Origin: Nitrososphaerota archaeon | GTDB taxonomy: Archaea; Iainarchaeota; Iainarchaeia; Iainarchaeales; GCA-2688035 | Reading direction: 5' to 3' | Assembly: GCA_017610265.1 (NCBI GenBank) | Contig: JAFCCH010000010.1 | Coordinates: 1-45,016 of the forward strand | DNA length: 45,016 nucleotides | In this document: positions 15,180 through 34,902 of the stretch, in pieces | Numbering within the stretch: the stretch's first letter is position 1 | How the letters are laid out: every line of letters begins with the position of its first letter | The notes under the pieces: generated by a model | What the model saw: only the letters and a program-made list of their open reading frames with translations | Told to the model about the DNA's origin: nothing | The model's database searches: none | Made by a program: the position numbers and the translations under genes

Positions 15180-15240
15180 AGCTTGGTACATGGCTCAAAG
15201 AAATAGCTTTTTTAAGAGTTCTTGATTTTTGTTCTTTATC

Positions 15241-15247: not shown

Positions 15248-15254
15248 ATATATT

Positions 15255-16562
15255 ATGAAGGTTGCAGTGATAGGAACTGGTTATGTTGGCCTTGTGGCAG
15301 GCACTTGTTTTGCAGACATGGGAAACGACGTAATTTGTGTGGACATCGACGAGAAAAAGATAAAAACTTTGAACGAGGGAAAGGTTCCTATTTATGAGCC
15401 AGGCCTTGACAAATTGATTAAGAAAAATGTTTCGGCAAAAAAACTTATTTTTACGACAAATTTTGATGACGCAATCAGAAAAAGCGAAGTTATCTTTATC
15501 GCGGTTGGAACGCCTCCAAAGCCAAAGGGAGACGCAGACCTAAGCTATGTTGAAAATGTGGCCAGGGGAATTGCCTCTGTTGCCAAAAAGCCAAAGATCG
15601 TTGTTGAAAAAAGCACTGTTCCGGTCCAAACCTGCAAAAGAATAATGCAGGTTCTTGACTGCAACGAAGGAGATGACAACGGCAAGTGTATCAAACATTT
15701 GGTTGTAAGCAATCCGGAATTCCTAAGGGAAGGAAGTGCAGTTGACGACTTCTTGCACCCTGACAGAATTGTTGTCGGAACAGACGACGAAAAGGCTGAA
15801 AAGGTAATGGACAAGCTTTACAAACCTCTTAATTCAAAGATTCTTTTTACAGACATTCAAAGTGCTGAATTGATAAAGCACGCAAGTAACAGTTTCCTTG
15901 CAACAAAAATCAGTTTTATCAATGCGGTTGCAAATGTTTGTGAAAAAACAGGTGCAGACATTGAAAAGGTTGCAGAGGGAATGGGTCTTGATGATCGAAT
16001 TGGCCGAAACTTCCTCAATGCGGGAATTGGATACGGCGGATTCTGTTTTCCAAAAGATGTTGAAGCCTTTATCAGAATCTCTGACAAGAACGGATATGAT
16101 TTCAAGCTCTTGAAAGAGGTTCAGGCAGTTAACAAGGGCCAGAGAGAACTATTCCTCAAAAAGATTGAGGACTCAATCTGGAACCTTAACGGCAAAACCA
16201 TTGGGGTTTTGGGTCTTGCGTTTAAGCCAAACACTGACGACATGAGGTTTGCACCAAGCATTGATATCATTAATACTTTGCTCGAAGAAGGGGCAAAGGT
16301 AAAAGCCTATGACCCAGAAGCAATGGGCAGGGCAAAAACCATTTTCAAGGACAAGATAGAGTACTGCGACGACATGTATGCAGTTCCAAAGGATGTCGAC
16401 GCCCTTTTGTTCCTAACTGAATGGGATGAGTTTAAGAAAATTGACCTTGAAAAGGTAAAGAAGATGATGAAGCAGCCATTTGTCTTTGATGGACGAAACA
16501 TGTTCAATCCAAAGGACATGAGGGCAATGGGCTTCAAGTACGAAAGCATTGGAAGGCTCTAA
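15255..16562 (+). CDS. ugd: UDP-glucose 6-dehydrogenase
   Basis: IGTGYVGL, PIYEPGL, IAVGTP, EKSTVPV, SNPEFLREG, GYGGFCFPKD, LAFKPNTDDMR, DGRN. Confidence 0.93.
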   Translation: MKVAVIGTGYVGLVAGTCFADMGNDVICVDIDEKKIKTLNEGKVPIYEPGLDKLIKKNVSAKKLIFTTNFDDAIRKSEVIFIAVGTPPKPKGDADLSYVENVARGIASVAKKPKIVVEKSTVPVQTCKRIMQVLDCNEGDDNGKCIKHLVVSNPEFLREGSAVDDFLHPDRIVVGTDDEKAEKVMDKLYKPLNSKILFTDIQSAELIKHASNSFLATKISFINAVANVCEKTGADIEKVAEGMGLDDRIGRNFLNAGIGYGGFCFPKDVEAFIRISDKNGYDFKLLKEVQAVNKGQRELFLKKIEDSIWNLNGKTIGVLGLAFKPNTDDMRFAPSIDIINTLLEEGAKVKAYDPEAMGRAKTIFKDKIEYCDDMYAVPKDVDALLFLTEWDEFKKIDLEKVKKMMKQPFVFDGRNMFNPKDMRAMGFKYESIGRL

Positions 16563-16564
16563 AG

Positions 16565-17302
16565 ATGCAGGTAATCATTCCGGTTGCAGGATATGCCACA
16601 AGGCTCTTTCCCCTGACAAAAGACAAGCCAAAGGCCTTGCTTGACGTTAAGGGAAAGACAATCCTTGAGCACATTCTGAAACGGATTGAAGACCTTCCAA
16701 ATATTTCAAGCATTTCCATTGTAAGTAATGCCAAGTTCTTTTCTCACTTTGACGACTTTGTCAAAGGCTATAATGCAAAGGTTTCAATAAATGTTTTGAA
16801 CGACGGCACAACAAGTAATGACGACAGGCTTGGGCAGATTGGCGACATTCAGCTTGCAATTGAAGAACAGGGAATTAACGAGGACTTGCTGCTGATTTCA
16901 GGAGACAACTTGTTTAACTTTAGCCTAATGCCTGCCTATAATTTTTTTAAGGAAAAAAATGCAATTGTAAACGCCTTGTATGACATAAAGGATTTGGAGG
17001 CTGCAAAAGAGCTTGGAGTAATGTCAATAGACCCTGTTTCAAGCATTGTCACAGACTTTGAGGAAAAGCCGGTTGAACCAAAGAGCACAAATGTTTCACT
17101 CGGCATTTACTTCTTTCCAAAGGATTCTGTCAAGGAAATAAAGGCCTTTTTGGACAGGGGCGGCAAGCCAGACAAGATAGGCTATCTAATGGCAGAACTA
17201 ACCGGAAAAAAGGCCCTTTTTGGCTTTGTTTACGAGCAAAAATGGTTTGACATAGGTGTTCCAATTGCTTTGGAGAAGGCAAGGAACGAATTTGAGCCAT
17301 AA
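16565..17302 (+). CDS. sugar-phosphate nucleotidyltransferase
   Basis: IPVAGYATRLFPLT..KPKALL, SGDNLF, FEEKP, WFDIG. Confidence 0.9.
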   Translation: MQVIIPVAGYATRLFPLTKDKPKALLDVKGKTILEHILKRIEDLPNISSISIVSNAKFFSHFDDFVKGYNAKVSINVLNDGTTSNDDRLGQIGDIQLAIEEQGINEDLLLISGDNLFNFSLMPAYNFFKEKNAIVNALYDIKDLEAAKELGVMSIDPVSSIVTDFEEKPVEPKSTNVSLGIYFFPKDSVKEIKAFLDRGGKPDKIGYLMAELTGKKALFGFVYEQKWFDIGVPIALEKARNEFEP

Positions 17303-17348
17303 GCCCAATTAAATAATTTTTGTTGCTTTATTATTATAGGTTTTTTTA

Positions 17349-18287
17349 ATGAAAACAATTGTTATCACAGGCGGAGTAGGCTTTATCGGAAGCCACTTAT
17401 GCGAACGACTTTTGAAAGAAGGCAATAAGGTAATTGCAGTTGACAACTTTGTTACAGGCAACAAGGCAAATGTTAATGCCTTTCTCTCAAACGAAAACTT
17501 TTCACTAATTGAACACGATATTACAAAGCCCCTGGAGATTGAAGGAGAGGTTGACCAAATTTTCAATATGGCAAGCCCTGCTTCCCCGGTTGACTTTCCA
17601 AGAATTCCAATTGAAATTCTTTTGACAAACTCTCTTGGAACAAAAAATGTTTTGGATTTTGCTGTTTCAAAGAATGCAAGGATTTTACAGGCTTCAACAA
17701 GTGAGGTTTACGGAAATCCTTTGGAGCACCCTCAAAAGGAAACATATTTTGGAAATGTCAATACAATTGGGCCAAGAAGCTGTTATGATGAAGGAAAAAG
17801 GTTTAGCGAAGCCCTTCTACTGGCCTACAAAAGAAAGAAGAACGCAGACATTCGAATTGTAAGAATTTTCAATACTTATGGCCCAAGAATGAGGCCAAAG
17901 GACGGCAGAGTAATGCCAAATTTCATTAATCAGGCATTGGAAGGCAAGCCATTGACTGTTTACGGCGACGGAAGCCAGACAAGGTCTTTTTGTTTTGTGT
18001 CAGATGAGGCAGATGGCCTGATAAAGCTAATGAATTCTAATTATAACAAACCTGTTAATGTTGGAAATTCAAATGAGATGACAATAAAGCAGCTTGCAGA
18101 ACTTGTGATAAAGCAAATTGAAAGCAAAAGTGAGATTGCTTTTGAGCCATTGCCAGGAGACGACCCTGCAAAGAGAAAGCCGGACATTTCCCTTGCAAAG
18201 AAAGAGCTTGGATGGGAACCAAAAATAAGCCTTGAAGAGGGCTTGGCCAAAACAATTGATTGGTTCAGGCAAAGCGCGGGCAAGTGA
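17349..18287 (+). CDS. UDP-glucuronic acid decarboxylase (UXS-type SDR)
   Basis: TGGVGFIGSHL, ASPASP, ASTSEVYG, GPRSCYDEGKR, RIFNTYGPRM, GDGSQTRSFC. Confidence 0.92.
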   Translation: MKTIVITGGVGFIGSHLCERLLKEGNKVIAVDNFVTGNKANVNAFLSNENFSLIEHDITKPLEIEGEVDQIFNMASPASPVDFPRIPIEILLTNSLGTKNVLDFAVSKNARILQASTSEVYGNPLEHPQKETYFGNVNTIGPRSCYDEGKRFSEALLLAYKRKKNADIRIVRIFNTYGPRMRPKDGRVMPNFINQALEGKPLTVYGDGSQTRSFCFVSDEADGLIKLMNSNYNKPVNVGNSNEMTIKQLAELVIKQIESKSEIAFEPLPGDDPAKRKPDISLAKKELGWEPKISLEEGLAKTIDWFRQSAGK

Positions 18288-18292
18288 TCTAC

Positions 18293-19723
18293 ATGCCTTT
18301 AAAAATATTGCTGATTCATCCCCCTGCCGATATGTCGGTCAAAAAGGTTCGCATTGAAAAGTCCGCAATTGAAAAATTACACGCTGTAACCGCCCCATTG
18401 GGCCTTGCATATCTTGCGGCAATGGTGAAAGACCTTGATGTAAAAGTTCAGATTTTTGACGCAAACCTTTTTCAGGCTTCCCTTGAAGAAATTGGTGAGG
18501 AAATCAAAAAGGCAAAGCCAGATCTTGTTGGCATTGGAGTAACCTCTGCCTCTGGAAAGGCAGGTGGCCAAATTGCAGACCTTTCAAAGGAACTGGCGCC
18601 AAACGCTCTCACTCTAGTTGGAGGGCCACACATTATTGCAACAGGAACTGAGATGATGGAAATCTTTGCAGGAGTTGACATTTTAATTCCGGGAGATGCT
18701 GAAGAGTCTTTCAGGGAGCTTGTTGAAACACTTCTTGCAAAAAAACCTTTGGCAAAGAGCAGGGGCATTATCTTTAGAGACAAGAAAGGCAAGTTTGTAA
18801 AGACCGAGCCGATTCCTTTGAAGCACTTGGATGATTTGCCAATGCCTGAGTGGGATTTGCTGCCTCCGCTGGACAAGTATAATTTCCAGCCCGCAACTTA
18901 CAGGCGACATCCCCATTCTTTTGTGGTTGCAAGCAGGGGCTGCCCTTACAGATGCGTGTTCTGTCATATCAGCAGGTTCAGGCACCAGGTAAGGGTCAGG
19001 TCTCCTGAAAAGATTGTTGAAGAAATAAAGATTTTATATGAAAAATATGGAATCAGGGAATTCAGGTTTGGAGACGAAATATTTACGTTGAACCACAAGT
19101 GGTGCACTGAAATTTGTGATAGGATAATTAAGGCTGGGCTTGATATTTCCTGGACTTGTGACACAAGACCTGACCGAATGTCTGCAGAGCTTGCCAAAAA
19201 GCTTGCTGAAGCAGGCTGCTGGGCTATTTCAATTGGAGTTGAGTCAGGCTCTCAAAAGATTCTTGACAGAATAAAGAAAGACATTACTTTGCAGCAGGTG
19301 GTTGACACAGTCAAGTATGCACATGATGCAGGCATGATTGTAAGGGCTTTCTTCATGCTTGGCTTTCCGTTTGAGACAAGGAATGACATTGAGCAAACAA
19401 TTGACTTTGCAAAAAGGTCAGGCATTGACTTTTCCCAGTTTAGTTACGTTATTCCATTCCCTGGCACTGAAATTTATGACATTTGCCAGGAAAAGGGCAT
19501 TTATGGGAAATACGGTTGGATGGAGTATGATGCATCAGTCTACACAACCCCAACCTGCTTGCCTGACGGCATAACCAAGGAAGAAATGCAGGTTTACTTC
19601 AAAAGAGCTTACAGGGAATTCTATTTCAGGCCAAAGCTTTGGATTAAGGTATTGCTCAGCATTAGAAGCATGACTGATATCGAACGTTACTGGAAGGGCT
19701 TTTGGGGCCTTATTCATGCCTAA
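18293..19723 (+). CDS. B12-binding domain radical SAM protein
   Basis: PLGLAYLAA, VGGPH, SRGCPYRCVFC, GVESGS, PFPGT. Confidence 0.92.
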   Translation: MPLKILLIHPPADMSVKKVRIEKSAIEKLHAVTAPLGLAYLAAMVKDLDVKVQIFDANLFQASLEEIGEEIKKAKPDLVGIGVTSASGKAGGQIADLSKELAPNALTLVGGPHIIATGTEMMEIFAGVDILIPGDAEESFRELVETLLAKKPLAKSRGIIFRDKKGKFVKTEPIPLKHLDDLPMPEWDLLPPLDKYNFQPATYRRHPHSFVVASRGCPYRCVFCHISRFRHQVRVRSPEKIVEEIKILYEKYGIREFRFGDEIFTLNHKWCTEICDRIIKAGLDISWTCDTRPDRMSAELAKKLAEAGCWAISIGVESGSQKILDRIKKDITLQQVVDTVKYAHDAGMIVRAFFMLGFPFETRNDIEQTIDFAKRSGIDFSQFSYVIPFPGTEIYDICQEKGIYGKYGWMEYDASVYTTPTCLPDGITKEEMQVYFKRAYREFYFRPKLWIKVLLSIRSMTDIERYWKGFWGLIHA

Positions 19724-19765
19724 ACATTAAGCGAAAAATCAGATTTTAAGAAACAGGCAAACAAA

Positions 19766-20485
19766 TCAGATTTTGCCTTCTTTCTTCATTCTTTCCCTGA
19801 ACTGGAAAATTTCTTTTACATAGTCCTTTGTGTCAGAAAAAATCTTAACAGTTGACTTGGTCTCGGGATTTTTTTCAAATTCAACAGGAATTTCCTTTAT
19901 CTTCAGGCCCTCGTAATAGGCGATTGCCATTATTTCCGTGTCCCAAAACCAGTGTTTGTTCTTTGTCTGTGCCAGGATTGGAGCAATCTTTTTCTTGTTA
20001 AAAAATTTACAGCCTGACTCAGTGTCTTTTAACTTAATTTTCAAAAGAACCCGTGTAAACTTGTTGTAGCCTCGGCTTAACACAAATCGATGAATGTTTT
20101 TCCAAGTAATCTTGGTGTGCCTGTCTCCAATTGAAACGTCAAAGCCGTTGTCAATTGCTTCAACAAGTTTTGGAATGTATTTTTCGCTTACCTCCAAGTC
20201 AATGTCAAGGAAGCCGACAATTTCTCCCCTGGCTTTGGCAATTGCGTCTTTTACCGTCTGACCACGGCCCTGGTTGACTGTGTGAAAGTAAGCCTTGGCA
20301 TTTGAATTTTCTGCGGCAATCTTCCTGATGTTGTCTGCCGTTTTGTCTGTGCTTTTGTCGTCGAAGAGAATTATTTCAAACGGCCTGTTCATTTTGCCAA
20401 GCAAGTTCTCCAGCCTTTTGACTGCCTTGAAAATAAATTCTCCTTCATTGTAGCATGGGATTGTGAGGCTTACCATTTTCTTCAT
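19766..20485 (-). CDS. GT2, polyprenyl-phosphate glycosyltransferase type (DPM1/ArnC-like)
   Basis: IPCYNE, DDKSTD, NQGRG, DIDLE, DTESGCK, WFWDTEI. Confidence 0.88.
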   Translation of the reverse strand: MKKMVSLTIPCYNEGEFIFKAVKRLENLLGKMNRPFEIILFDDKSTDKTADNIRKIAAENSNAKAYFHTVNQGRGQTVKDAIAKARGEIVGFLDIDLEVSEKYIPKLVEAIDNGFDVSIGDRHTKITWKNIHRFVLSRGYNKFTRVLLKIKLKDTESGCKFFNKKKIAPILAQTKNKHWFWDTEIMAIAYYEGLKIKEIPVEFEKNPETKSTVKIFSDTKDYVKEIFQFRERMKKEGKI

Positions 20486-20494
20486 TTAATCACA

Positions 20495-21688
20495 TTATTT
20501 TTTGTAAAAGTCAAGCACTTTTGTAATGGAGGTTATTACGTCTTCAACATCCTGGTCTGAAAGTTTTGGAGACAAAGGCAAAGAAATTGTCCGGTCTGAA
20601 ATAAATTTCGCGTTTGGAAACTGCTCTTGCTTAAATCCAAAAGTGTCTATGTAATACCTGTGCAAATGCAGTGAAATAAAGTGAATGCCTGTGCCTATGT
20701 TCTCTTTGTGAAGGGCTTGTTGCAAAAAGTTTCTGCCCTTTTTCAGTTTTTCCAAATCAAGCAGTGGAGTATAAAGATGCCTTGCGTGCCTTGTGTTCTC
20801 CTCGGTTTTTGCAGGAAGGAACACAGGCAAGTCCTCAAATGCCTCATTGTATTTCTTCCAGATTTTTTCCCTTTTCTTTAAATTTTTTTCAACCCTTGCA
20901 AGTTGGTGAATGCCGAGAGCTGCCTGCATGTCCATCATGTTAAATTTGTAGCCTGGAAAAACAACTTCGTAGTGCTTAAAGCCCTCGTCGCTGTATCTTT
21001 GCCATGCTCCCTTGCTTAAACCATGTAATGCATATTTTTCAATATCTTCAGCCCACTTACCATTGTTTGTGGCAACCATTCCACCTTCTCCGCATACAAC
21101 GTTTTTTGTCGCATAGAAAGAGAACGCCGTTAAATCTGAAATATTTCCAATCTTTTTGCCCTTGTATTTGGCTTCAACTGCATGGGCAGCGTCTTCTATT
21201 ACAAGCAGGCTGTTGTCTTTGGCAATCCTTTGGATTTCGTCCATGTTACAGGGCCTTCCTGCAAGGTGTACTGGAATTATTGCTTTGGTTTTCTTTGTAA
21301 CTGCTTTCTCAACAAGGTTTGGATCAATGTTCATTGTGTTCTTTTCAACATCAACAAAGACCGGCTTTGCCCCTGCGTGCAGTATAACATTTGCTGTTGA
21401 GGAAAATGTAAGCGGTGTTGTAATGACTTCGTCACCTGGCTTTATTCCTGAGACAATCAATGAGAGAAACATGCCTGCTGTGCAGCTGTTCAATGCTTTT
21501 GTGTGCTTGCAGCCAATGTATTCTTTAAAATCTTTTTCAAAGCGCAGTACTTTTGGGCCTGTTCCAATCCAGCTTTTCTTTAAGCTGTCGACAACCTCGT
21601 CTATTTCTGGCTGTAGTATTTCAGGGCTGCCAAAGACAAGATATTCTTCTCTTACAGGCTTTCCTCCTTCTATTGCAGGTTTTTTCAT
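20495..21688 (-). CDS. DegT/DnrJ/EryC1/StrS sugar aminotransferase, ArnB-like
   Basis: WIGTGPKV, TKAIIPVH, IEDAAHA, FSFYATKN (PLP Lys), GEGG, HGL, PGYKFNM, IGTGIHF, SLPL. Confidence 0.92.
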   Translation of the reverse strand: MKKPAIEGGKPVREEYLVFGSPEILQPEIDEVVDSLKKSWIGTGPKVLRFEKDFKEYIGCKHTKALNSCTAGMFLSLIVSGIKPGDEVITTPLTFSSTANVILHAGAKPVFVDVEKNTMNIDPNLVEKAVTKKTKAIIPVHLAGRPCNMDEIQRIAKDNSLLVIEDAAHAVEAKYKGKKIGNISDLTAFSFYATKNVVCGEGGMVATNNGKWAEDIEKYALHGLSKGAWQRYSDEGFKHYEVVFPGYKFNMMDMQAALGIHQLARVEKNLKKREKIWKKYNEAFEDLPVFLPAKTEENTRHARHLYTPLLDLEKLKKGRNFLQQALHKENIGTGIHFISLHLHRYYIDTFGFKQEQFPNAKFISDRTISLPLSPKLSDQDVEDVITSITKVLDFYKK

Positions 21689-21845
21689 TGAGTCCTTTCC
21701 TAAATTTGTGTTTTTTGCTTAAGCATTACTTACTCTGTGAATTTAATGAATTGAGCTAAAAAGCATTAAAAATCATAACGTTATCAGAATTGTACCAAAC
21801 TTTTTTGCGATGCTTTTTATTACTATTGTCTTAATGGATTTTTAT

Positions 21846-22364
21846 ATGCCGGTCAACGAAATGCCCTATGATCACTGGAATCCGCTTGTAAGGTTTTACT
21901 TTAATGGCATCCTAAAGAAGGCCGTTAAACTTGCAGACCTTAAGACAGGGGAAACAGTGCTTGACTTTGGCTGCGAAAGCCAACAGCTCAAGAAATTTAT
22001 TCCAAAGGGTGTGAAATATGTGGGATTTGACATTGTTCCGGGAAATTCAGATCTCAAGGATTATAGGCAGGCAAGGCCAAACGTTGTTTTTGCTTTAAGC
22101 GTGTTGGAACACCTTGAGGAAAAGGAACTTGAATATACTTTAAATGACTTTAAGCAAATGGGTGTCAAAAAGCTTGTTGTAAGCTTGCCGACAGAACACT
22201 TCATTTCAAAGATTTTGGCCTGGCTTCATGGTTTTAGTGAAGAACACGAGGACGAGCACAAAACAAACTGGAAAAGCGTTTACAAAATTCTTTCAAGCAG
22301 GTTAAAGCAGGAAAAAACAGCCGGCTTTTACACAATGCAAAAAATGAGTGTCTGGGCTCTTTAA
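21846..22364 (+). CDS. short class I SAM-dependent methyltransferase
   Basis: VLDFGCE, YVGFDI, LSVLEHL; ATG 21846 preferred (21810 possible). Confidence 0.8.
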   Translation: MPVNEMPYDHWNPLVRFYFNGILKKAVKLADLKTGETVLDFGCESQQLKKFIPKGVKYVGFDIVPGNSDLKDYRQARPNVVFALSVLEHLEEKELEYTLNDFKQMGVKKLVVSLPTEHFISKILAWLHGFSEEHEDEHKTNWKSVYKILSSRLKQEKTAGFYTMQKMSVWAL

Positions 22365-22412
22365 TTGAAAACAATTCTAACAGATAATTTAATGGTGAAT
22401 TTTTAGGGGTGA

Positions 22413-23885
22413 ATGATTATGTCTGAACAACTTTTGTCCTCGGTAAAAAACAAGACAATTTTTGGAATGATTGCCTTATTCCTTGTTTTAATGGTTGCAA
22501 ACCTTCTTCTTTCAAGGCCCAATCCAGATGAAGGAATTCATATGATGGGCGGGTGGCTTTTGCTGAATGGAACAGTCCTTTACTCAGAGCTTTTCTCAAT
22601 GTATGCTCCTGGAAGCTATTTTATTCTTGCGGCATTCTATTCCTTGTTTCCTGCAGACTTTGTTGTAAGTAGGCTTTTGATGCTTGCAGTAAACCTTGGT
22701 TCTCTTGTAGCATTCTTTGCCTTGTGCAGAAAGCTTTTGGACGAAAGGGCTTCCTTGATTGCGTTATTTTTCTACGTGGTCTGGAGTGTTTTTACAATTT
22801 CCTGGAATGTTCTAATGGAACCATTTATGACACTTTTTGCAATTCTTTTGGTTTACTTTGTCTTAACCTATCTTGAATCAAAAAAGCTTCAGGATCTTGC
22901 TCTTGCAGGCCTGTTTATTGCAAGCATTGTCATGATGAAGCAGACAATGCTGTTCTTTTCAACAGCCGCATTGTTTTTCCTAATCATTAAGGCAAGGCCT
23001 TCCCTCAAAGAGTATGCGGTTTTAGGAGTTTCCTATGCCCTGCTTCCCTTGCTTTTTCTTTACTACCTTTTTTCAAACAATGCCTTTTTTGACTTTGTTG
23101 ACCAGGCAATTCTTTACAACCTTGCCCACTCTTCGCTTTTTGCTTTTAGGTTTCACCTTGGCTGGATTGCGGTAACTGCCTTGTTTGTCTCGGTCTTTGC
23201 ACTTGCTGCTCTTTTGTTTCTTTCAAAAAAGCTTAGAATCAAGAAGGACAAGGGTCAGCTTTTGTTTATTTGGATTGTTTTAACTCTTCCAACCTTGCTG
23301 CCTGTTCTTGGCTGCTGCCACCACCACCTGCCTTTGGTGCCTGGCTTTGTGATTCTTTTCACCCTTGCCTTTGACTCTGTTTTCTTCAAAGGAGACGGCT
23401 TTAGCCTTAAGGGCTTTGATGCAAAGCCTTTACTGAAAGGATTTTTGGCTTTGGTTTTTGTGGCAAGCATTGTGGGTTCAGGTATTTACCTTTCACAATA
23501 CTTTTTCCAAAATGATTTCGAGGACTTGTTTGAAGTAGCTGAATTTGTTAATGAAAATAGTTCTCCTGAGGACAAAATTCATGTAACCTACTGGGATGAA
23601 GAAGTTTACTTCTTTGCCTTAAGAAAGCCGGCCACAAGATACCTTTACCACCCATTTTTGTTTGAGGCAGAGGAAAAGGCATTTCAGGCAGAGGTTGTTC
23701 AGGCACTTGAGGATGAAAAAGCAATTTTCGTGGTGGACTTTGCAAGAGACGATGAACCCATGCAAAGCGAGGGAGAAATGTCAGAATATATCCTTGAAAA
23801 TTACTCTCTTGTAAAAACACAGGAAATGGATCCTGCTCTCTACAACACTTTTAACTATGGCTTTGTTTTGCAGAGAAACGAGTAA
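22413..23885 (+). CDS. GT-C membrane glycosyltransferase (ArnT/PMT_2-like)
   Basis: TM1 followed by NPDEGIH, ..LY...YAPG, many TM helices, KQ motif and a soluble C-terminal domain; SD GGGGTGA. Confidence 0.8.
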   Translation: MIMSEQLLSSVKNKTIFGMIALFLVLMVANLLLSRPNPDEGIHMMGGWLLLNGTVLYSELFSMYAPGSYFILAAFYSLFPADFVVSRLLMLAVNLGSLVAFFALCRKLLDERASLIALFFYVVWSVFTISWNVLMEPFMTLFAILLVYFVLTYLESKKLQDLALAGLFIASIVMMKQTMLFFSTAALFFLIIKARPSLKEYAVLGVSYALLPLLFLYYLFSNNAFFDFVDQAILYNLAHSSLFAFRFHLGWIAVTALFVSVFALAALLFLSKKLRIKKDKGQLLFIWIVLTLPTLLPVLGCCHHHLPLVPGFVILFTLAFDSVFFKGDGFSLKGFDAKPLLKGFLALVFVASIVGSGIYLSQYFFQNDFEDLFEVAEFVNENSSPEDKIHVTYWDEEVYFFALRKPATRYLYHPFLFEAEEKAFQAEVVQALEDEKAIFVVDFARDDEPMQSEGEMSEYILENYSLVKTQEMDPALYNTFNYGFVLQRNE

Positions 23886-23908
23886 CGGCTTTTCTTTAAG
23901 AAAAAGAA

Positions 23909-24637
23909 TTAGTCTCGCCCAAGCTTTCTTAATTCAGTGAGCCTTCTTTTCTTCAAGCTTAAAACGCTTCCAAACAGGCTGAGGGCTGCTGAAAAAATGT
24001 TCAAAGTACTTCCTCTAAAACCGTAATCACCCTCGATTGGAACTTCCTTTACACTGAAGCCAAGCCATTCACACACCATTAATATTTCAGTGTCCCAAAA
24101 CCATTGCTCGTCTTTTACAAAGGGCAATGCTTTTTTGATTGCTCTTTTTTTGAATCCCTTCATGCCACCCTGATAATCCCTTATCTTTCCACCAAGGATT
24201 ATTCTGACAATTAGGTTGTAGCTTCTTCCCAAAAACTTTCTCGTAAAAGGGCTTTTGAATTCAGACTTTGGATTGTGCTTGCTTGTAATTGCAATGTCGT
24301 AGCCTGACTGGATTTTTTTAACAATTTCTCCAATATATTTAGGCCCTATTTCAAGGTCTGCGTCTGTGTAAATTTGAATTGCTCCCTGTGCCTTTCCGAA
24401 GCCAATTGACAAAGCCCTTCCCTTGCCAACTCTTTCAGCCCTGTAAACAACACTTACTCTCTTGTCCTTTGCCGCAATTTCTTTTGCAACTTTAAGAGTA
24501 TTGTCGGGATTTTTTCCGGTAACAATCAGAATTTCGTAGTCTTTTGAAAAGCGCTGTATTTCAAGGCTTACGTCCTTGACGGTTTTTTCCAAAAATCTTT
24601 CAGATTTATAAGCCGGAATTACTACTGACAACATCAT
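23909..24637 (-). CDS. GT2, polyprenyl-phosphate glycosyltransferase type
   Basis: VVIPAY, GKGRAL, DADLE, DYQGGMKGF, WFWDTEI; paralogue of 19766..20485. Confidence 0.87.
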   Translation of the reverse strand: MMLSVVIPAYKSERFLEKTVKDVSLEIQRFSKDYEILIVTGKNPDNTLKVAKEIAAKDKRVSVVYRAERVGKGRALSIGFGKAQGAIQIYTDADLEIGPKYIGEIVKKIQSGYDIAITSKHNPKSEFKSPFTRKFLGRSYNLIVRIILGGKIRDYQGGMKGFKKRAIKKALPFVKDEQWFWDTEILMVCEWLGFSVKEVPIEGDYGFRGSTLNIFSAALSLFGSVLSLKKRRLTELRKLGRD

Positions 24638-24686
24638 ACTGCTTCACTATCTATGAATATTAAAAACCTTTAAATGATTTGCCTGT

Positions 24687-26345
24687 CTATGGGCAGGTTT
24701 CTCTTGCAAAAACAACAAGCATGTCATACTTTCCGTTCTCAATTGTTCTGCATCTCTTAAATTTCTGTAATGCTTGATTTAATTCATTCTCAGGCTCTTC
24801 TAAGAGCTCTGGCACAACCAAAGCATAGTCTGCTTTCTCAAAATCGCTTGGTTCTGCAATCACAAGTTTTCTTTTCTCTTGAAAAAGGGCTTCAACACTT
24901 GCATCAGGTGTGAAAATTTTGTCAAACAACGGCTTTCTGATTGACAAATCATATTTGTAAATTTCTTTGTAATAATTTGCTGTAAAATATGCCTCTTTAG
25001 TGTAAACAATAGAGTCTTCCGGAATGCTTGTAACAAATTCTGAAATTCCCTTAAAGTCGTGGACCATGACAACATTAATGCTTCCAACAAGGAAGACTGC
25101 CACAAGAAGGCCTGCAATCATTTGCCTTGTTCTTGGAAATTTCTTTATTGAAGCAAGCATAAAGCTTACAAGCATTATCGCAGGCAACTCGTATCCAAGT
25201 GCCCTGTTGGTCCTCTTCATGGTTAAAACACTAAAGAAGAACACAAACGCTCCGATTCCAATTAAGAGAATAGATGCTAGTTCATAATTTTTGCTCTTAA
25301 ATGCATGGTATGCCGCAAATGGCAATGCAAACGCAAGCAAAAGCATAAAAAACGGCGAGTAAAAGAAGTTCATTACCTTAAACAGGAACAAAAAGTCCTC
25401 GCTTGGAAGACCCTCTGTTTCAACAGCCTCTGCAATCGGTGCGCTCATATGGGCTTCTGTCAAATCCCATCTTTCCCCTCCACCTCTTTCCTCCCAACCT
25501 CTTGCACTCTCAAACTGGTTTAGGATAAGAGGAGTGTAAAAAAGCACTACTGTAATTATAAGTGTTGCAAAGATTGCAACATTTTTTTTGTTCTCCTTTT
25601 TCAAAAGCTTTTCTTTGTTAATCCAGGCAATTCCTGCAAAGAATGGAATAATAATGAGGGTTGGAAACCTTGTTGCAAAGGCAAGCCCTGCAAGTGCTCC
25701 TGCAAGAGGCAAAAGGTTTGGCTTTTTTTGGGCTTCGAAGAAAACTGCAAGTGAGGCAAATGCAAGGAACCATCCAAGCGGTCCAAGGAATGACGTGGCT
25801 GACATAAAAACATTGTATGGGGAAAACAGAATCAATGCAAATGCAAGAAAGCCTGCATTTTTGTTCCACTTGCGTCCTATGAAAAGGCCGACAAATGCAA
25901 GCCCAACCATTGCAAGGCTTGAAACAAGTTCTCCTGCGATGTTTGGCGCAAGGCCTGTAACAAAAATTGTGGCTGCTGTTGTCAGCACAAATAAGGGAGG
26001 GGGAGCCTGCATCAAATAAGGAATTCCCAAGCCGAATTTGGCAATCAAAAGAACAGCTGCGATGGCAATTGTTGCCTTAAAACTTCTTTTGATAATTATA
26101 AGATATGCCGAGGCGATTGCAATTACCGCAAGAACAACTGCTACAAGGGGGGCGCTCCATAAAAGATAGGCAATTTTGTATGCATAAGTTACAAAGAAGA
26201 CCTCGTCTCCGCTTATGTCTGTTGAATTGATAAAGAAAAGCCTCAAAGCTATTCCAATAAATGTAATTACTGCAAGGCCGATGAATGTCTGCCTGTCTTC
26301 CTTGTAAAATTTCTTTAGCTTGTCAGCCACGTCCTTTAAGCACAT
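24687..26345 (-). CDS. GT-C membrane glycosyltransferase (ArnT/PMT_2-like)
   Basis: IALRL...SGDEVFF after TM1, PPLF, GLAFATR, many TM helices, soluble C-terminal domain. Confidence 0.75.
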   Translation of the reverse strand: MCLKDVADKLKKFYKEDRQTFIGLAVITFIGIALRLFFINSTDISGDEVFFVTYAYKIAYLLWSAPLVAVVLAVIAIASAYLIIIKRSFKATIAIAAVLLIAKFGLGIPYLMQAPPPLFVLTTAATIFVTGLAPNIAGELVSSLAMVGLAFVGLFIGRKWNKNAGFLAFALILFSPYNVFMSATSFLGPLGWFLAFASLAVFFEAQKKPNLLPLAGALAGLAFATRFPTLIIIPFFAGIAWINKEKLLKKENKKNVAIFATLIITVVLFYTPLILNQFESARGWEERGGGERWDLTEAHMSAPIAEAVETEGLPSEDFLFLFKVMNFFYSPFFMLLLAFALPFAAYHAFKSKNYELASILLIGIGAFVFFFSVLTMKRTNRALGYELPAIMLVSFMLASIKKFPRTRQMIAGLLVAVFLVGSINVVMVHDFKGISEFVTSIPEDSIVYTKEAYFTANYYKEIYKYDLSIRKPLFDKIFTPDASVEALFQEKRKLVIAEPSDFEKADYALVVPELLEEPENELNQALQKFKRCRTIENGKYDMLVVFARETCP

Positions 26346-27150
26346 TTAAATCACGCGTCCGCCTTTTTCCCTGAACTCTTTCCAGTGTTCTTTTGTTGGC
26401 CAGCTATAATAGCTTGGCTTGTTTCCCTTGTCAACTTTTGAAAAGTCCTGGTTTCTCACCTTATCAAGGGCCTCAAACAATGCTTCAACACTTTCATCAA
26501 AGCACTTTGAATAGAGTTCGTGCAATGTTTCGTTTCCGTGAATTGGAACCTTTCTTTGCGCCAAAACTTTTCCTTTGTCAATCTCGTGTTCCATTGTGTG
26601 AATTGATGTGCCTGTAAACTTTTCCCCTTTTCTAAAGGCCTGTAAGACAGGAAGCACTCCTCCATATGATGGGAGAAGGGCAGAGTGCCTGTTGAGGCAG
26701 CATATCTTTGGCAATGCTAAAATTTCCTTGCCGAAAATCCAATGCTAAAATTTCCTTGCCGAAAATCAATGGGTTTGAACTGATTATTACGTCTGGCTCA
26801 AATCCCCTCATTTTGAAAATGTATTCCTTTTTGTTGATGTCTTCTTTTACCCTGAAAAAAGGAATGTGAAAAAATTCAAGCACTGACTTTACCGAATAAA
26901 ATTTTGAGTTGGCATTCTTTTGTTGAAAGGCATTTTTTGACTTCATGTCCGCTTTTGTCCAAGCCATTTTTGCAAGCTCTTCAGGTGTAAAGTAATTCAA
27001 ATGCTTTAAGAAATATCTTTCAATATTGTTTTTCTTTGGAACCTTTGTTACAAGCGCGACTCCGACAACCTTGTCCTTGGTTCGCCTGAGAAAATCCGCA
27101 AAAAATTCAGGATGGTAAATGCCCTCGTCCAAGACAAAGAAAAGCCTCAT
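26346..27150 (-). pseudogene. formyltransferase (about 258 aa) frameshifted by a 28-bp tandem duplication
   Basis: Removing one repeat unit joins ...PDVIISSNPLIFGKEILAL to PKICCLNRHSALLPSYGG...GTSIH..EIDKG (N-x-H and D formyltransferase residues); 805-28=777 nt. Confidence 0.88.
26712..26767. repeat. perfect 28-bp tandem duplication
   Basis: caatgctaaaatttccttgccgaaaatc at 26712-26739 and 26740-26767. Confidence 0.97.
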
Positions 27151-28037
27151 TTTTTTACACCGCCAAAATCTTCTACAAGCCTTTTGAATGAAACGCTTTT
27201 CACAGTTTTAAACTCTTTCTTTCTCCACTCAGAGTAATAAAATTCCGGAAATCCCTTTCCGTCCTTCCAGTGAACGGCTTCTTCCTTTTTTGCAAAGCCA
27301 GGGTGAAACAAGGCCTCCACTACTGCATTTCTTTCCCAAATTTTTGGCAAAGCAGCCCTTACAACTTCCTCGCTCATGTTTCCTGCAAAAATGTTTCCAA
27401 TAAAGTAATCATTGCTTTTTATTCCGAGCTTTTCAAGCTTTTGCTTTTTTCCGGCAGACAACTGGTTTAGAAGAACGTGCTTTGCAATGTTTAATCCGAA
27501 ATAATTTTCCAAAAAGTTTGCCCTGTCAAGTGCAAGGAAGAACGGTTCTTTTGGAATTCTGATATAGGAAATTCCCAATTCTTTTCTAAGCTCTAAAATT
27601 GTTTCAAACACAAAGGGAATCATGTGGAAATGACGGTGACTGTCAATGTTTATTTTAGCATTTTTGGGCAAAACTTTTCTGACCTTTTCAACCTGGCTTG
27701 CAATCTCTTTCTTTGTTTCATGCTTCAGCCTTTTTTTTCCTGCCTTGCCTGCTGAAAGCCATGCAAACCAAAGGCTTTGAAAGCTGTGCTTAAAATATCC
27801 TTTTTCGTCAACAAGAAGACCTTTATTTGCCCTTAGGGCTTTTCCTTCTGCAAGGTTTAGGTGGATGCCAAGCCTAAGGCCCTTTCTCTTCTTGAATTCC
27901 TTTATTGCATAGTCAAATGCATAGCCGTTTGGCACAATGCTTGTGCTTGTAAGGCTCCCTTTGTCAGCACATTCGAGTATTTTGTCCGAAACGCCTTTTG
28001 AGAAGCCAAAGTCGTCAGCATGTATTATTAGCTTCAT
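27147..28037 (-). CDS. YdjC/ChbG/HpnK family carbohydrate deacylase
   Basis: IIHADDFG, GIHLNLAEG, IDSHRHFH, EALFHPG; ATG 28037 preferred. Confidence 0.9.
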   Translation of the reverse strand: MKLIIHADDFGFSKGVSDKILECADKGSLTSTSIVPNGYAFDYAIKEFKKRKGLRLGIHLNLAEGKALRANKGLLVDEKGYFKHSFQSLWFAWLSAGKAGKKRLKHETKKEIASQVEKVRKVLPKNAKINIDSHRHFHMIPFVFETILELRKELGISYIRIPKEPFFLALDRANFLENYFGLNIAKHVLLNQLSAGKKQKLEKLGIKSNDYFIGNIFAGNMSEEVVRAALPKIWERNAVVEALFHPGFAKKEEAVHWKDGKGFPEFYYSEWRKKEFKTVKSVSFKRLVEDFGGVKK

Positions 28038-34901: not shown

Positions 34902-34902
34902 C

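What the first reader, a model, noticed from the sequence alone, without database searches (positions are those of the whole stretch)
15255..28037. Archaeal counterpart of the Arn (L-Ara4N)/Lgm/Flm amino-sugar decoration pathway, without lipid A
Seen: within 13 kb lie Ugd, a UDP-GlcA decarboxylase, an ArnB-like aminotransferase directly upstream of a polyprenyl-P GT2, and a co-directional block YdjC deacylase > formyltransferase > GT-C > GT2, plus a second GT-C. Established: the enterobacterial Ara4N route is Ugd, ArnA decarboxylase, ArnB, ArnA formyltransferase, ArnC (GT2), ArnD deformylase, flippase, ArnT (GT-C). YdjC proteins (Francisella NaxD, Bordetella LgmC) deacylate polyprenyl-P-linked N-acyl sugars before ArnT-type transfer. 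Inference: this archaeon makes a formyl-protected amino sugar, loads it on dolichol-P, deformylates it with a YdjC enzyme and transfers the cationic sugar to ether lipids or surface glycoprotein glycans. Caveat: the decarboxylase has the UXS signature (CYDEGKR), so it may make UDP-xylose rather than release the 4-keto pentose.
Basis: partly seen in the sequence, partly recalled or inferred. Interest (0 to 1): 0.85.

Follow-up and report, generated by a model that had tools for sequence, protein, structure and literature searches.

The report
Mosaic archaeal glycan island, deacylase-formyltransferase cassette
A small-genome archaeon carries a patchwork sugar-decoration gene island that resembles the bacterial aminoarabinose pathway only in part, and its most unusual piece is a deacylase–formyltransferase gene pair, broken here, that bacteria often encode as one fused protein of unknown function.

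Summary
The formyltransferase is split by a 28-bp tandem duplication. The 552-aa "GT-C" has no Pfam hit and is GT-C only by predicted fold. A nucleotidyltransferase, a B12 radical-SAM enzyme and a methyltransferase-like ORF were left out.

The single Arn-like pathway is only partly supported. The decarboxylase is a canonical UDP-xylose synthase (372 bits to human UXS1, about 100 to ArnA). No ArnA-type decarboxylase was found in the 82%-complete genome.

Relatives show the region is three separable modules:
- A conserved core: Ugd–nucleotidyltransferase–UXS, a GT2 with the 552-aa GT-C, and a UDP-HexNAc-dehydrogenase-like gene.
- An ArnB-like aminotransferase–GT2 unit with a PMT_2 GT-C.
- A YdjC–formyltransferase cassette, with no comparable copy in the 40 relatives searched and Pfam YdjC in 3 of 215 genomes of the phylum.

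The cassette's relatives are bacterial where named, and 56 of 72 close database clusters are single fused YdjC–formyltransferase proteins.

My best reading is that the cassette edits the N-acyl group of a dolichol-phosphate-linked hexosamine: deacetylation, then formylation. The Arn-style protect-and-deprotect reading remains a live rival.

Novelty: a new variant of polyprenyl-phosphate/GT-C glycosylation. Interest is moderate.

The parts
12831..13574 (-). Sugar-1-phosphate nucleotidyltransferase (NTP1). It flanks the conserved core.
   Evidence: Pfam NTP_transferase, 114 bits. The orthologue in relative G017 is 81% identical and sits in the same position.
14328..15179 (+). Xylose-isomerase-like TIM-barrel protein, the first gene of the core operon.
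   Evidence: Pfam AP_endonuc_2, 55 bits. The G017 orthologue is 53% identical and lies directly upstream of Ugd.
15222..16562 (+). UDP-glucose 6-dehydrogenase (Ugd). The true start is probably at 15255.
   Evidence: All three UDPG_MGDP_dh Pfam domains match. It passes the NDP-sugar dehydrogenase subfamily model at 489 bits against a cut-off of 190. TuaD scores 584 and AglM 407.
16565..17302 (+). Sugar-1-phosphate nucleotidyltransferase (NTP2), probably supplying UDP-glucose.
   Evidence: Pfam NTP_transferase, 106 bits. It is syntenic between Ugd and UXS in G017, G035 and metagenome locus L038.
17349..18287 (+). UDP-glucuronate decarboxylase of the UDP-xylose synthase (UXS) type.
   Evidence: 372 bits (E 2e-110) to human UXS1 (4gll, 2b69), against about 100 bits to the ArnA decarboxylase domain. 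The printed alignment shows the ASTSEVYG, CYDEGKR and GSQTR stretches identical to UXS1.
18260..19723 (+). B12-binding radical-SAM enzyme of unknown reaction, overlapping the end of UXS.
   Evidence: Pfam B12-binding plus Radical_SAM. The best NCBIfam models are HpnJ (194 bits) and BchE (192 bits), both far under their cut-offs.
19766..20485 (-). GT2a, a soluble polyprenyl-phosphate-type glycosyltransferase directly downstream of the aminotransferase.
   Evidence: Pfam GT2, 95 bits. Best solved relatives are Dol-P-Man synthase 5mlz (66 bits) and ArnC (47-51 bits). The ArnC NCBIfam model scores 59.7 against a cut-off of 529. No TM-like segment. The DegT-GT2a pair recurs in G033 at 73% and 54% identity.
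20495..21688 (-). DegT-family sugar aminotransferase, ArnB-like. Its substrate is unknown.
   Evidence: Pfam DegT, 418 bits. ArnB model 362 bits (cut-off 631) and PseC model 350 (cut-off 423.5). The top four PDB hits are all ArnB at 250-269 bits; PseC 2fn6 scores 179.
21810..22364 (+). Small methyltransferase-like ORF, divergent from the aminotransferase.
   Evidence: Methyltransf_23 at 26.6 bits, just under the cut-off of 27. A similar ORF lies next to DegT in G033 and G022.
22413..23885 (+). GT-C glycosyltransferase of the PMT_2 type (GT-C1).
   Evidence: Pfam PMT_2, 52 bits. It is polytopic, with an Asp-Glu pair after the first helix. No PDB sequence hit. A PMT_2 protein also lies near the DegT-GT2 pair in G033.
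23909..24637 (-). GT2b, a soluble polyprenyl-phosphate-type glycosyltransferase and the last gene of the YdjC operon.
   Evidence: Pfam GT2, 98 bits. Best solved relatives are 5mlz (68 bits), ArnC (47-54) and GtrB (53). It is adjacent to homologues of the 552-aa GT-C in G017 (50% identity) and in L039 (53%).
24687..26345 (-). 552-aa polytopic membrane protein with a GT-C fold (called MEM552 in this report).
   Evidence: No Pfam hit. Eight database homologues share an invariant Asp47-Glu48. The AF2 model has pLDDT 71.6. Foldseek ranks 1-31 are all GT-C enzymes (STT3, ArnT 5ezm at TM 0.45, ALG12, PglB, AglB, Pmt4). Atlas neighbours are PMT_2/ArnT clusters.
26346..27150 (-). Formyltransferase gene of the YdjC-linked subfamily, frameshifted in this assembly.
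   Evidence: The C-terminal ORF matches Formyl_trans_N positions 102-181 at 70.7 bits. The two ORFs align end to end with intact 259-269-aa homologues in L005, L020 and L033 at 40-46% and 52-62% identity. The catalytic Asn, His and Asp of the intact L033 homologue align with Fmt, and the window's C-terminal ORF carries the matching stretch. The span is 805 nt, not a multiple of 3.
26712..26767 (.). Perfect 28-nt tandem duplication that breaks the formyltransferase frame.
   Evidence: Read directly from the sequence. TRF reports period 28, 2.2 copies, at 26712-26771. The unit is bounded by a 5-nt direct repeat, as replication slippage would produce.
27147..28037 (-). YdjC-family (ChbG/HpnK/NaxD-type) carbohydrate deacylase. 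Its stop overlaps the formyltransferase start.
   Evidence: Pfam YdjC, 156.8 bits over the full profile. HpnK model 119 bits (cut-off 232.6). The best solved relative is chitooligosaccharide deacetylase 7vi8, 56 bits. Asp and His residues are invariant across 26 homologues. Homologues begin at Met19 of the longest ORF.
28148..29434 (+). NDP-sugar 6-dehydrogenase of the UDP-HexNAc type, divergent from the YdjC operon.
   Evidence: NDP-sugar dehydrogenase subfamily model 423 bits. The best equivalog models are archaeal UDP-ManNAc dehydrogenase (341 bits) and TviB (257 bits), both under their cut-offs. In G017 and L041 it lies directly beside the 552-aa GT-C with no YdjC or formyltransferase between them.
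29443..30876 (+). Wzx/MurJ-type polysaccharide flippase.
   Evidence: Pfam Polysacc_synt (66.6 bits), Polysacc_synt_3 and MurJ.

Best explanation
The interval is a mosaic surface-glycan island in a small-genome archaeon. It is built from three separable modules, and each follows the same logic: a sugar is loaded on polyprenyl (dolichol) phosphate by a GT2, then transferred outside the membrane by a GT-C.

Module A is the conserved core. It comprises the TIM-barrel gene, Ugd, a nucleotidyltransferase and UXS, which together make UDP-GlcA and UDP-xylose. It also includes GT2b with the 552-aa GT-C, and a UDP-HexNAc-type dehydrogenase.

Module B is an ArnB-like aminotransferase with GT2a, a methyltransferase-like ORF and a PMT_2 GT-C. 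It would deliver an amino sugar whose keto-sugar precursor is unknown.

Module C is a YdjC-formyltransferase cassette inserted at the head of the GT-C/GT2b operon. Its relatives are bacterial wherever a source names them, and many are fused into one YdjC(N)-formyltransferase(C) protein.

Proposed mechanism (inferred, not shown): the cassette edits the N-acyl group of the N-acetylhexosamine or hexosaminuronate handled by GT2b and the GT-C. YdjC removes the acetyl group, as NaxD and LgmC do on undecaprenyl-phosphate sugars. The formyltransferase then formylates the freed amine from N10-formyl-tetrahydrofolate.

In this assembly the formyltransferase is knocked out by a 28-bp tandem duplication, so the sugar would remain a free, cationic amine. 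The island is not an Ara4N pathway in the Arn sense, because its decarboxylase is an ordinary UDP-xylose synthase.
For: Archaeal origin of the contig:
- The genome encodes S28e and an archaeal SSU rRNA.
- Relative G017 (same family) has the order NTP1 | TIM-Ugd-NTP2-UXS | GT2b-GT-C | dehydrogenase at 45-81% identity.

Modularity:
- G017 has the core with no aminotransferase, GT2a, PMT_2 gene, YdjC or formyltransferase.
- Metagenome locus L041 has the dehydrogenase directly beside the 552-aa GT-C. L038 and G035 place that GT-C beside Ugd-NTP2-UXS.
- G033 has DegT (73% identity) and GT2a (54%), with a methyltransferase-like ORF and a PMT_2 GT-C within 3 kb. No YdjC or formyltransferase was found in that genome with my queries.

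The cassette:
- With the window YdjC as query, 1 of 40 relatives gave only a weak match. The Pfam model hit 3 of 215 genomes of the phylum, G000 included.
- All 30 genome-contig loci found with the YdjC alignment are bacterial. In 3 of them an intact formyltransferase of this subfamily follows YdjC.
- 15 of the top 150 representatives of the formyltransferase subfamily are 559-610 aa long. Eight of the eight tested are YdjC-formyltransferase fusions.
- 56 of 72 clusters found with one fusion as query carry both Pfam domains. The named ones are Phycisphaerales.

Order of the two steps:
- YdjC precedes the formyltransferase in all 4 unfused pairs and in all 8 fusions tested.
- YdjC of this subfamily also occurs fused to methyltransferases and to GtrA.
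- Among 88 neighbouring ORFs in the 30 bacterial loci: GT2 20, methyltransferases 8, carbamoyltransferases 5, GT-C-type proteins 10 (DUF2079 4, GtrII 4, PMT_2 2), formyltransferases 3. This fits a deacylase that exposes an amine on a lipid-linked sugar for a variable second modification.

Formyl donor: FolD lies next to PurN in the genome, so N10-formyl-tetrahydrofolate is plausible.

UXS identity.

Precedent: NaxD is described as a YdjC-superfamily deacetylase acting on undecaprenyl-phosphate-GalNAc (passage read in PMC11279074).
Against: - No biochemical evidence exists for any step.
- A formyltransferase acting on a lipid-linked or deacetylated hexosamine has no precedent that I know of (recalled). 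Characterised sugar N-formyltransferases act on NDP-amino sugars made by aminotransferases.
- Gene order and domain order do not prove reaction order. ArnA itself fuses two non-consecutive steps (recalled).
- Carbamoyl- and methyltransferases near YdjC may modify hydroxyls rather than amines.
- The sugar carried by GT2b is not identified. Its conserved neighbours point to xylose or GlcA as much as to a HexNAc uronate.
- An ArnB-like aminotransferase does lie 5 kb away. A 94%-identical copy on contig C24 is directly preceded by an ArnA-N-like formyltransferase, which suits the Arn-like reading.
- The frameshift could be an assembly error; I could not check it in reads.
- The genome is 82% complete, so genes not found are not shown to be absent.
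Confidence: 0.42

Rival explanations
1. This is the first reader's model, an Arn-like protect-and-deprotect route. The aminotransferase makes an NDP-amino sugar. A formyltransferase N-formylates it, pulling the transamination forward and marking the donor. A GT2 loads the formamido sugar on dolichol phosphate. YdjC replaces ArnD as the deformylase. A GT-C then transfers the cationic sugar to a surface glycan or lipid.
For: - ArnB is the closest solved relative of the aminotransferase and its top NCBIfam model.
- The DegT-then-GT2 gene order mirrors arnB-arnC (recalled), and it recurs in G033.
- Contig C24 of the same assembly has a formyltransferase directly upstream of a 94%-identical DegT. 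For that formyltransferase the ArnA formyltransferase domain is the second-best PDB hit, at 89 bits.
- Formyltransferases lie 1.3-2.9 kb from DegT genes in relatives G037, G009 and G040.
- YdjC and the formyltransferase are functionally tied, as pairs and fusions.
- ArnC is described as using the formylated donor (abstract of PMC12690121, seen in the listing).
- ArnA shows that non-consecutive steps can be fused (recalled).
Against: - The decarboxylase is a UXS orthologue. No ArnA-type enzyme was found in the genome, so the 4-keto-pentose source is missing.
- The aminotransferase fails the ArnB equivalog cut-off (362 against 631) and scores nearly as well on PseC.
- The aminotransferase module occurs in G033 with no formyltransferase or YdjC found. 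The GT-C/GT2b operon occurs in G017 without them.
- The YdjC-linked formyltransferase is a different subfamily from the one next to DegT on C24 (31% identity).
- Only 1 of the 3 bacterial YdjC-formyltransferase loci has a DegT nearby.
- The formyltransferase is frameshifted here, which under this model would block the pathway.
Confidence: 0.25
2. This is a plain Lgm/Flm-NaxD-type system with a dead passenger gene. Only YdjC matters now: it deacetylates dolichol-P-HexNAc made by GT2b, so the 552-aa GT-C adds a cationic hexosamine. The formyltransferase is a decaying remnant of the acquired cassette.
For: - The frameshift comes from a 28-bp duplication.
- 27 of the 30 bacterial loci with this YdjC subfamily have no formyltransferase, yet 20 of 30 have a GT2 nearby.
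- GtrA-YdjC fusions exist.
- A NaxD precedent is documented.
Against: - There is a single lesion and no other stop or deletion. The two halves still align end to end with intact homologues, and the catalytic-site stretch is retained.
- The duplication could be recent, reversible or an assembly artefact.
- Tight operon spacing is preserved.
Confidence: 0.18
3. The YdjC-formyltransferase pair is unrelated to the neighbouring glycosyltransferases. It works on a soluble substrate, for example chitooligosaccharide or amino-sugar catabolism as ChbG does, and the apparent operon is an accident of insertion.
For: - The closest solved YdjC relative is a chitooligosaccharide deacetylase.
- The chitin disaccharide deacetylase NCBIfam model scores 100.6 bits against a cut-off of 227.
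Against: - The stop of YdjC overlaps the formyltransferase start, and the formyltransferase stop abuts the GT-C start.
- GT2 and GT-C proteins are the commonest neighbours of this YdjC subfamily.
- GtrA fusions exist.
- No sugar transporter or kinase lies next to it in the window.
Confidence: 0.05

Closest known systems
Enterobacterial Arn (L-Ara4N) pathway: Ugd, ArnA, ArnB, ArnC, ArnD, ArnE/F, ArnT
   Same: Shared elements: Ugd, an ArnB-like aminotransferase followed by a polyprenyl-phosphate GT2, a folate-type formyltransferase, a deacylase, and GT-C transferases. All lie within 13 kb and follow the same carrier-lipid logic.
   Different: - The decarboxylase is a UXS, not an ArnA C-domain.
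- The formyltransferase is a separate subfamily, paired with the deacylase rather than the decarboxylase, and is frameshifted.
- The deacylase is YdjC, not the CE4-type ArnD.
- The GT2s are about 240 aa with no membrane helices.
- No EmrE-like ArnE/F was seen.
- There is no lipid A acceptor.
- In relatives the pieces are separate modules.
Bordetella LgmABC and Francisella/Acinetobacter FlmF2-NaxD-FlmK hexosamine modification of lipid A
   Same: A GT2, a YdjC deacetylase and a GT-C in one unit. The YdjC is expected to act on the polyprenyl-phosphate-linked N-acyl sugar before transfer.
   Different: - There is an added partner formyltransferase, fused to YdjC in many bacteria.
- The host is an archaeon using dolichol-type carriers.
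- The acceptor is unknown.
- No sequence comparison with NaxD or LgmC themselves was possible, because no such sequence was available through the tools.
Three-component extracytoplasmic glycosylation systems (GtrA/GtrB/GtrV type; archaeal Dol-P-sugar plus GT-C steps such as H. volcanii AglD/AglS, recalled)
   Same: A soluble or peripheral GT2 makes a polyprenyl-P-monosaccharide, a flippase moves it, and a GT-C adds it to a finished glycan. There are two, possibly three, such GT2/GT-C pairs in the window.
   Different: - No GtrA was seen in the window; Wzx-type flippases are present instead.
- The donor sugars are tailored here by UXS, an aminotransferase, a deacylase-formyltransferase pair and B12 radical-SAM enzymes.
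Hopanoid side-chain genes HpnI (GT2), HpnK (YdjC), HpnJ (B12 radical SAM)
   Same: HpnK is the best NCBIfam model for the YdjC (119 bits). HpnJ is the best for two of the B12 radical-SAM proteins (194 and 234 bits).
   Different: All scores are far below the equivalog cut-offs (232.6 and 577.6), and BchE scores as well as HpnJ. I take this as family-level likeness only.

Membership tests
Arn (L-Ara4N) pathway | UDP-glucose 6-dehydrogenase supplying UDP-GlcA | tested here: met
   All three Ugd Pfam domains match. The NDP-sugar dehydrogenase subfamily model scores 489 bits against a cut-off of 190.
Arn (L-Ara4N) pathway | ArnA-type oxidative decarboxylase that releases UDP-4-keto-pentose | tested here: not met
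   The window SDR scores 372 bits to human UXS1 and about 100 to the ArnA C-domain. The ArnA NCBIfam model scores 116 against a cut-off of 777. None of the 7 other SDRs examined has ArnA as its best model. The genome is 82% complete. Product release itself cannot be read from sequence.
Arn (L-Ara4N) pathway | ArnB, the UDP-4-keto-pentose aminotransferase | tested here: inconclusive
   The top four PDB hits are ArnB. However, the ArnB equivalog model scores 362 against a cut-off of 631, and PseC scores 350.
Arn (L-Ara4N) pathway | N10-formyl-THF-dependent formyltransferase acting on UDP-Ara4N (ArnA N-domain) | tested here: inconclusive
   The Formyl_trans_N core is present and the catalytic-site stretch is retained. 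The gene is frameshifted. Fmt, PurN and ArnA models score alike at 56-64 bits. The substrate is unknown.
Arn (L-Ara4N) pathway | ArnC-type GT2 with C-terminal membrane helices | tested here: inconclusive
   The polyprenyl-P GT2 class is supported. The ArnC model scores only 60-62 bits against a cut-off of 529, and no TM-like segment was found.
Arn (L-Ara4N) pathway | ArnD, a CE4 (Polysacc_deac_1) deformylase | tested here: not met
   None of the 39 window ORFs scanned has a Polysacc_deac_1 hit. A YdjC protein is present instead.
Arn (L-Ara4N) pathway | ArnT (GT83) transferring to lipid A | tested here: inconclusive
   The GT-C fold is supported: ArnT 5ezm is rank 2 at TM 0.45, but STT3, ALG12 and Pmt4 score alike. 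I did not test GT83 membership specifically. A lipid A acceptor does not apply to an archaeon.
Lgm/Flm-NaxD hexosamine systems | YdjC-family deacetylase in one unit with a GT2 and a GT-C | tested here: met
   YdjC scores 156.8 bits and sits in an operon with the 552-aa GT-C and GT2b.
Lgm/Flm-NaxD hexosamine systems | Activity on a polyprenyl-phosphate-linked HexNAc | not testable with these tools
   Indirect evidence only: GtrA-YdjC fusions, and GT2 and GT-C proteins as the commonest neighbours.
UDP-xylose synthase (UXS) | Full-length high-scoring match and catalytic motifs of UXS | tested here: met
   E 2e-110 over residues 2-308. The ASTSEVYG, CYDEGKR and GSQTR stretches are identical to human UXS1 in the printed alignment.
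YdjC-formyltransferase pair/fusion (unnamed family) | YdjC immediately followed by, or fused to, a formyltransferase of this subfamily | tested here: met
   The window halves are 40-46% and 52-62% identical to the intact L005, L020 and L033 proteins, which follow YdjC there. Fusions are shown. In the window the formyltransferase member is broken.
GT-C glycosyltransferases | Polytopic fold with an acidic motif in the first outer loop | tested here: met
   Invariant Asp47-Glu48. Foldseek ranks 1-31 are all GT-C enzymes. Model confidence is moderate (pLDDT 71.6 from an alignment of 8 sequences).

The most novel reading that the evidence does not exclude
The YdjC-formyltransferase unit, whether paired or fused, is an undescribed bifunctional N-acyl-editing enzyme. 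It would swap the acetyl group of a polyprenyl-phosphate-linked hexosamine for a formyl group before a GT-C moves the sugar to the cell surface. In this archaeon, a slippage-prone 28-bp duplication in the formyltransferase half would toggle the surface sugar between a neutral formamido form and a cationic free-amine form.
Probability: 0.2. Interest if true: 0.7.

Novelty: new variant of a known kind. Interest (0 to 1): 0.48.

Why it matters
Archaeal surface glycans are very diverse, and the genetics of small-genome, probably host-dependent archaea are poorly known. This locus shows how such an organism assembles a decoration system: a conserved dolichol-phosphate/GT-C core plus add-on cassettes whose relatives are bacterial.

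The more general point is the tie between a NaxD/LgmC-type deacylase and a dedicated formyltransferase. It appears as gene pairs in four loci and as one fused protein in 56 database clusters.

I found no paper in the searched library holding both 'YdjC' and 'formyltransferase'. NCBI labels the fusions only as 'ChbG/HpnK family deacetylase'.

Working out what this unit does would add a step to the known repertoire of carrier-lipid sugar tailoring. It bears on how cells tune surface charge, which in bacteria governs resistance to cationic peptides.

Tried and rejected
- **Read-level check of the duplication.** The look-up of sequencing runs found one run (X1) holding 0.05 of the sampled words. 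Its contigs, laid on 23900-28200, covered only short pieces and not 26712-26771. This says nothing about the duplication or the habitat.
- **The listing of cluster members.** I wanted to see whether the split ORFs recur on the second contig that holds the identical 552-aa protein.
- **More YdjC-formyltransferase loci in Bacteroidota.** Only 2 of 401 genomes had a match, too few for a neighbourhood statistic.
- **HpnI/J/K-like lipid head-group reading.** Rejected, because all scores are far under the cut-offs.
- **The SDR next to the DegT orthologue in G005, as a clue to the keto-sugar source.** It is epimerase-like and uninformative.
- **Composition as a sign of transfer.** The cassette GC is 0.396, equal to the window's 0.396, so there is no signal.
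- **Literature.**
  - The archaeal N-glycosylation review PMC11407970 had no occurrence of formyl, xylose, AglS or deacetylase (find mode only).
  - In the three-component paper PMC11127046 I read passages only.
  - A search on archaeal UXS and dolichol gave nothing on Dol-P-xylose (listing only).
  - Supplements were not seen for any paper.
- **Not attempted.** I did not read the broken formyltransferase through with a frame-hopping code, and I did not run complex prediction on the pair. The intact homologues and the natural fusions answered the question.

Full report
**What is there**

The window is contig C52 of a 1.28-Mb assembly in 95 contigs, 82% complete. The assembly encodes ribosomal protein S28e and an archaeal SSU rRNA fragment. 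Its 40 nearest relatives have genomes of 0.5-1.4 Mb. I infer a small-genome, DPANN-like archaeon; no tool gave it a name.

I scanned 39 window ORFs against Pfam and 20 against NCBIfam. The interval 15255-28037 lies inside a larger glycan island. That island also holds two Wzx-type flippases, a third GT2/GT-C-like pair, a GT4, four B12 radical-SAM genes and one SPASM radical-SAM gene. A cis-prenyltransferase and a geranylgeranyl-reductase-like gene lie upstream.

**The observation**

Three corrections apply.

1. The formyltransferase is not one ORF. Two overlapping ORFs, 26632-27150 and 26346-26714, carry its N- and C-terminal halves. The cause is a perfect tandem duplication of 28 nt, with copies at 26740-26767 and 26712-26739. 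The unit is bounded by a 5-nt direct repeat, as replication slippage would produce. The gene span is 805 nt; without one copy it would be 777 nt. That fits the 259-269-aa intact homologues, with which the two halves align end to end.
2. The 552-aa protein called a GT-C has no Pfam hit even at E<10.
   - It has only eight database homologues, all sharing an Asp-Glu pair after the first helix.
   - An AlphaFold2 model (pLDDT 71.6) gave Foldseek ranks 1-31 that are all GT-C enzymes. ArnT is rank 2 at TM 0.45, alongside STT3, ALG12, PglB, AglB and Pmt4.
   - I accept the GT-C fold. I do not assign it to GT83.
3. A nucleotidyltransferase, a B12 radical-SAM gene and a small methyltransferase-like ORF lie inside the interval and were not mentioned.

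**The decarboxylase**

The 312-aa SDR scores 372 bits (E 2e-110) to human UDP-xylose synthase over its whole length. The catalytic stretches are identical in the printed alignment. It scores about 100 bits to the ArnA decarboxylase domain, and the ArnA NCBIfam model scores 116 bits against a cut-off of 777.

The genome holds 11 matches to the extended-SDR Pfam model. The seven others I examined are RmlB, LegB-like, PseB-like, two RmlD-like and two generic enzymes. None has ArnA as its best model.

On sequence, Ugd plus this enzyme make UDP-xylose, and no source of free UDP-4-keto-pentose was found. Sequence cannot exclude leakage of the keto intermediate.

**The aminotransferase and the GT2s**

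The aminotransferase's four best solved relatives are ArnB (250-269 bits), with PseC at 179. It fails the ArnB equivalog cut-off (362 against 631) and scores 350 on PseC. It is ArnB-like, with its substrate open.

Both GT2s are about 240 aa with no TM-like segment. Their best solved relatives are P. furiosus Dol-P-Man synthase, ArnC and GtrB. This supports polyprenyl-phosphate sugar synthases as a class, not ArnC specifically.

**Relatives show a mosaic**

- Relative G017 (same family) has this order on one 9-kb contig: NTP1 | TIM, Ugd, NTP2, UXS | GT2b, 552-aa GT-C | UDP-HexNAc-type dehydrogenase. Identities are 45-81%. Nothing corresponds to the aminotransferase, GT2a, the PMT_2 GT-C, YdjC or the formyltransferase.
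- G035 and metagenome locus L038 also place the 552-aa GT-C beside Ugd-NTP2-UXS.
- L039 keeps the GT-C with GT2b.
- L041 has the dehydrogenase directly beside the GT-C.
- G033, a different family, has DegT (73% identity) followed by GT2a (54%), with a methyltransferase-like ORF upstream and a PMT_2 GT-C within 3 kb. No YdjC and no formyltransferase at E<=1e-10 was found in that genome.

The window thus combines a conserved core (A), an aminotransferase module (B), and a YdjC-formyltransferase cassette (C). The cassette is inserted exactly between the GT-C and the divergent dehydrogenase gene.

The 552-aa GT-C was found in 4 of 40 relatives. DegT homologues at E<=1e-60 were found in 17 of 40.

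**The cassette**

With the window YdjC as query, the 40 relatives gave only one weak match. The Pfam model found YdjC in 3 of 215 genomes of the phylum, G000 included; the other two are weak and split.

Its best database homologue is 55% identical. Every homologue that a source names is bacterial: Paceibacterota, Omnitrophica, Lentisphaerae, Riflebacteria and others. All 30 loci from the species-genome collection are bacterial.

In 3 of those 30 loci (one Bacteroidota, one Flavobacteriales, one Lentisphaerae), an intact formyltransferase of the same subfamily directly follows YdjC.

A full HMMER search with the Lentisphaerae formyltransferase found 89 representatives at E<=1e-30. Fifteen of the top 150 are 559-610 aa long with the match in the C-terminal half. 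All eight that I scanned are YdjC(N)-formyltransferase(C) fusions, and a ninth is a truncated one.

A search with one fusion as query found 72 clusters, of which 56 carry both Pfam domains. The named ones are Phycisphaerales, labelled only 'ChbG/HpnK family deacetylase'.

The functional tie between the two genes is therefore well supported, and it is the most interesting result. No paper in the searched library holds both 'YdjC' and 'formyltransferase'.

**How the cassette may work**

Two orders of events are possible.

(i) Acyl swap. YdjC removes an acetyl group from a hexosamine that GT2b has loaded, or will load, on dolichol phosphate. The formyltransferase then caps the amine. In favour:
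- YdjC comes first in all four unfused pairs and all eight fusions tested.
- The same YdjC subfamily is also fused to methyltransferases and to GtrA.
- Among the 88 nearest ORFs of the 30 bacterial loci, the commonest families are GT2 (20), methyltransferases (8), carbamoyltransferases (5), GT-C-type proteins (DUF2079 4, GtrII 4, PMT_2 2) and formyltransferases (3). Fifty-two more distant ORFs were dropped to meet the size limit.
- No aminotransferase is needed, and a UDP-HexNAc-type dehydrogenase is the cassette's neighbour.

(ii) Arn-like protection. The formyltransferase acts on an NDP-amino sugar and YdjC deformylates it after lipid loading. In favour:
- An ArnB-like aminotransferase lies 5 kb away.
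- The small contig C24 of the same assembly has an ArnA-N-like formyltransferase directly upstream of a DegT. That DegT is 94% identical in protein and 88% in DNA to the window's. The formyltransferase belongs to a different subfamily, 31% identical.
- Formyltransferases lie 1.3-2.9 kb from DegT genes in three relatives.
- ArnA is a precedent for fusing non-consecutive steps (recalled).

A formyl donor is plausible under either model, because FolD lies beside PurN in the genome.

I favour (i) modestly, at 0.42 against 0.25. Under (i) the frameshift would leave a free cationic amine, as in NaxD systems (passage in PMC11279074). Under (ii) it would block the route.

**What remains unknown**

- The sugar carried by each GT2.
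- The keto-sugar substrate of the aminotransferase.
- The acceptors. A 1019-aa PKD/Ig/fn3 surface protein at 6866-9925 is one candidate.
- The role of the B12 radical-SAM enzymes.
- Whether the duplication is real. The only public run found did not cover it.
- Whether C24 is a paralogue or a co-binned relative.

**Verdict**

This is a new variant of the known polyprenyl-phosphate/GT-C decoration systems, not an archaeal Ara4N pathway. The YdjC-formyltransferase unit deserves a biochemical test.

Noticed in passing
G000 contig C24 (locus L034) 223-1017 and 1156-2346: A 2.3-kb contig of the same assembly carries a 264-aa formyltransferase directly upstream of a DegT. For the formyltransferase, the best PDB hits are Fmt (103 bits) and the ArnA N-domain (89 bits). 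The DegT is 94% identical in protein and 88% in DNA to the window's, while the upstream DNA has no likeness to the window. It is either a paralogous locus or a co-binned close relative.
   Followed up: partly
window 1076-2746 (-): A NodU/CmcH-type carbamoyltransferase lies at the edge of the island. Carbamoyltransferases are also among the nearest neighbours of this YdjC subfamily in bacteria (5 of 88 ORFs).
   Followed up: no
window 18260-19723, 30881-32308, 33534-34910, 36858-38279 (B12 type) and 34903-35982 (SPASM type): There are five radical-SAM genes in one glycan island. The B12 types are 29-36% identical to one another, and further copies lie on contigs C32, C54 and C59. Their reactions are unknown. 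One directly follows UXS.
   Followed up: no
window 38352-39329 (-), 39303-40958 (+), 40955-42535 (+): A third unit of the same kind: a 325-aa GT2, a 551-aa polytopic protein with a weak PMT_2 hit (22 bits, under the cut-off), and a second Wzx-type flippase.
   Followed up: no
window 3307-4005 (-), 5665-6831 (-), 6866-9925 (-): A cis-prenyltransferase (carrier-lipid synthesis), a geranylgeranyl-reductase-like flavoprotein, and a 1019-aa PKD/Ig/fn3 surface protein lie just upstream. The surface protein is a possible glycan acceptor and has a weak Top6b_C-like hit.
   Followed up: no
proteins P0045, P0055, P0341 and P0063, P0064: The same YdjC subfamily also occurs fused to SAM methyltransferase domains and to GtrA-like flippase domains.
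   Followed up: partly
G040:C35:54066-54659 and G546:C40:4056-4610: The only other YdjC matches in 215 genomes of the phylum each appear as two pieces in adjacent frames. They may be frameshifted or decaying copies.
   Followed up: no
locus L056 (G033:C14) 12379-13365 (-): An LPG_synthase_TM (MprF flippase-like) protein lies between the DegT-GT2 pair and the PMT_2 GT-C in relative G033. It is a candidate flippase for that module. The window has none at the matching place.
   Followed up: no
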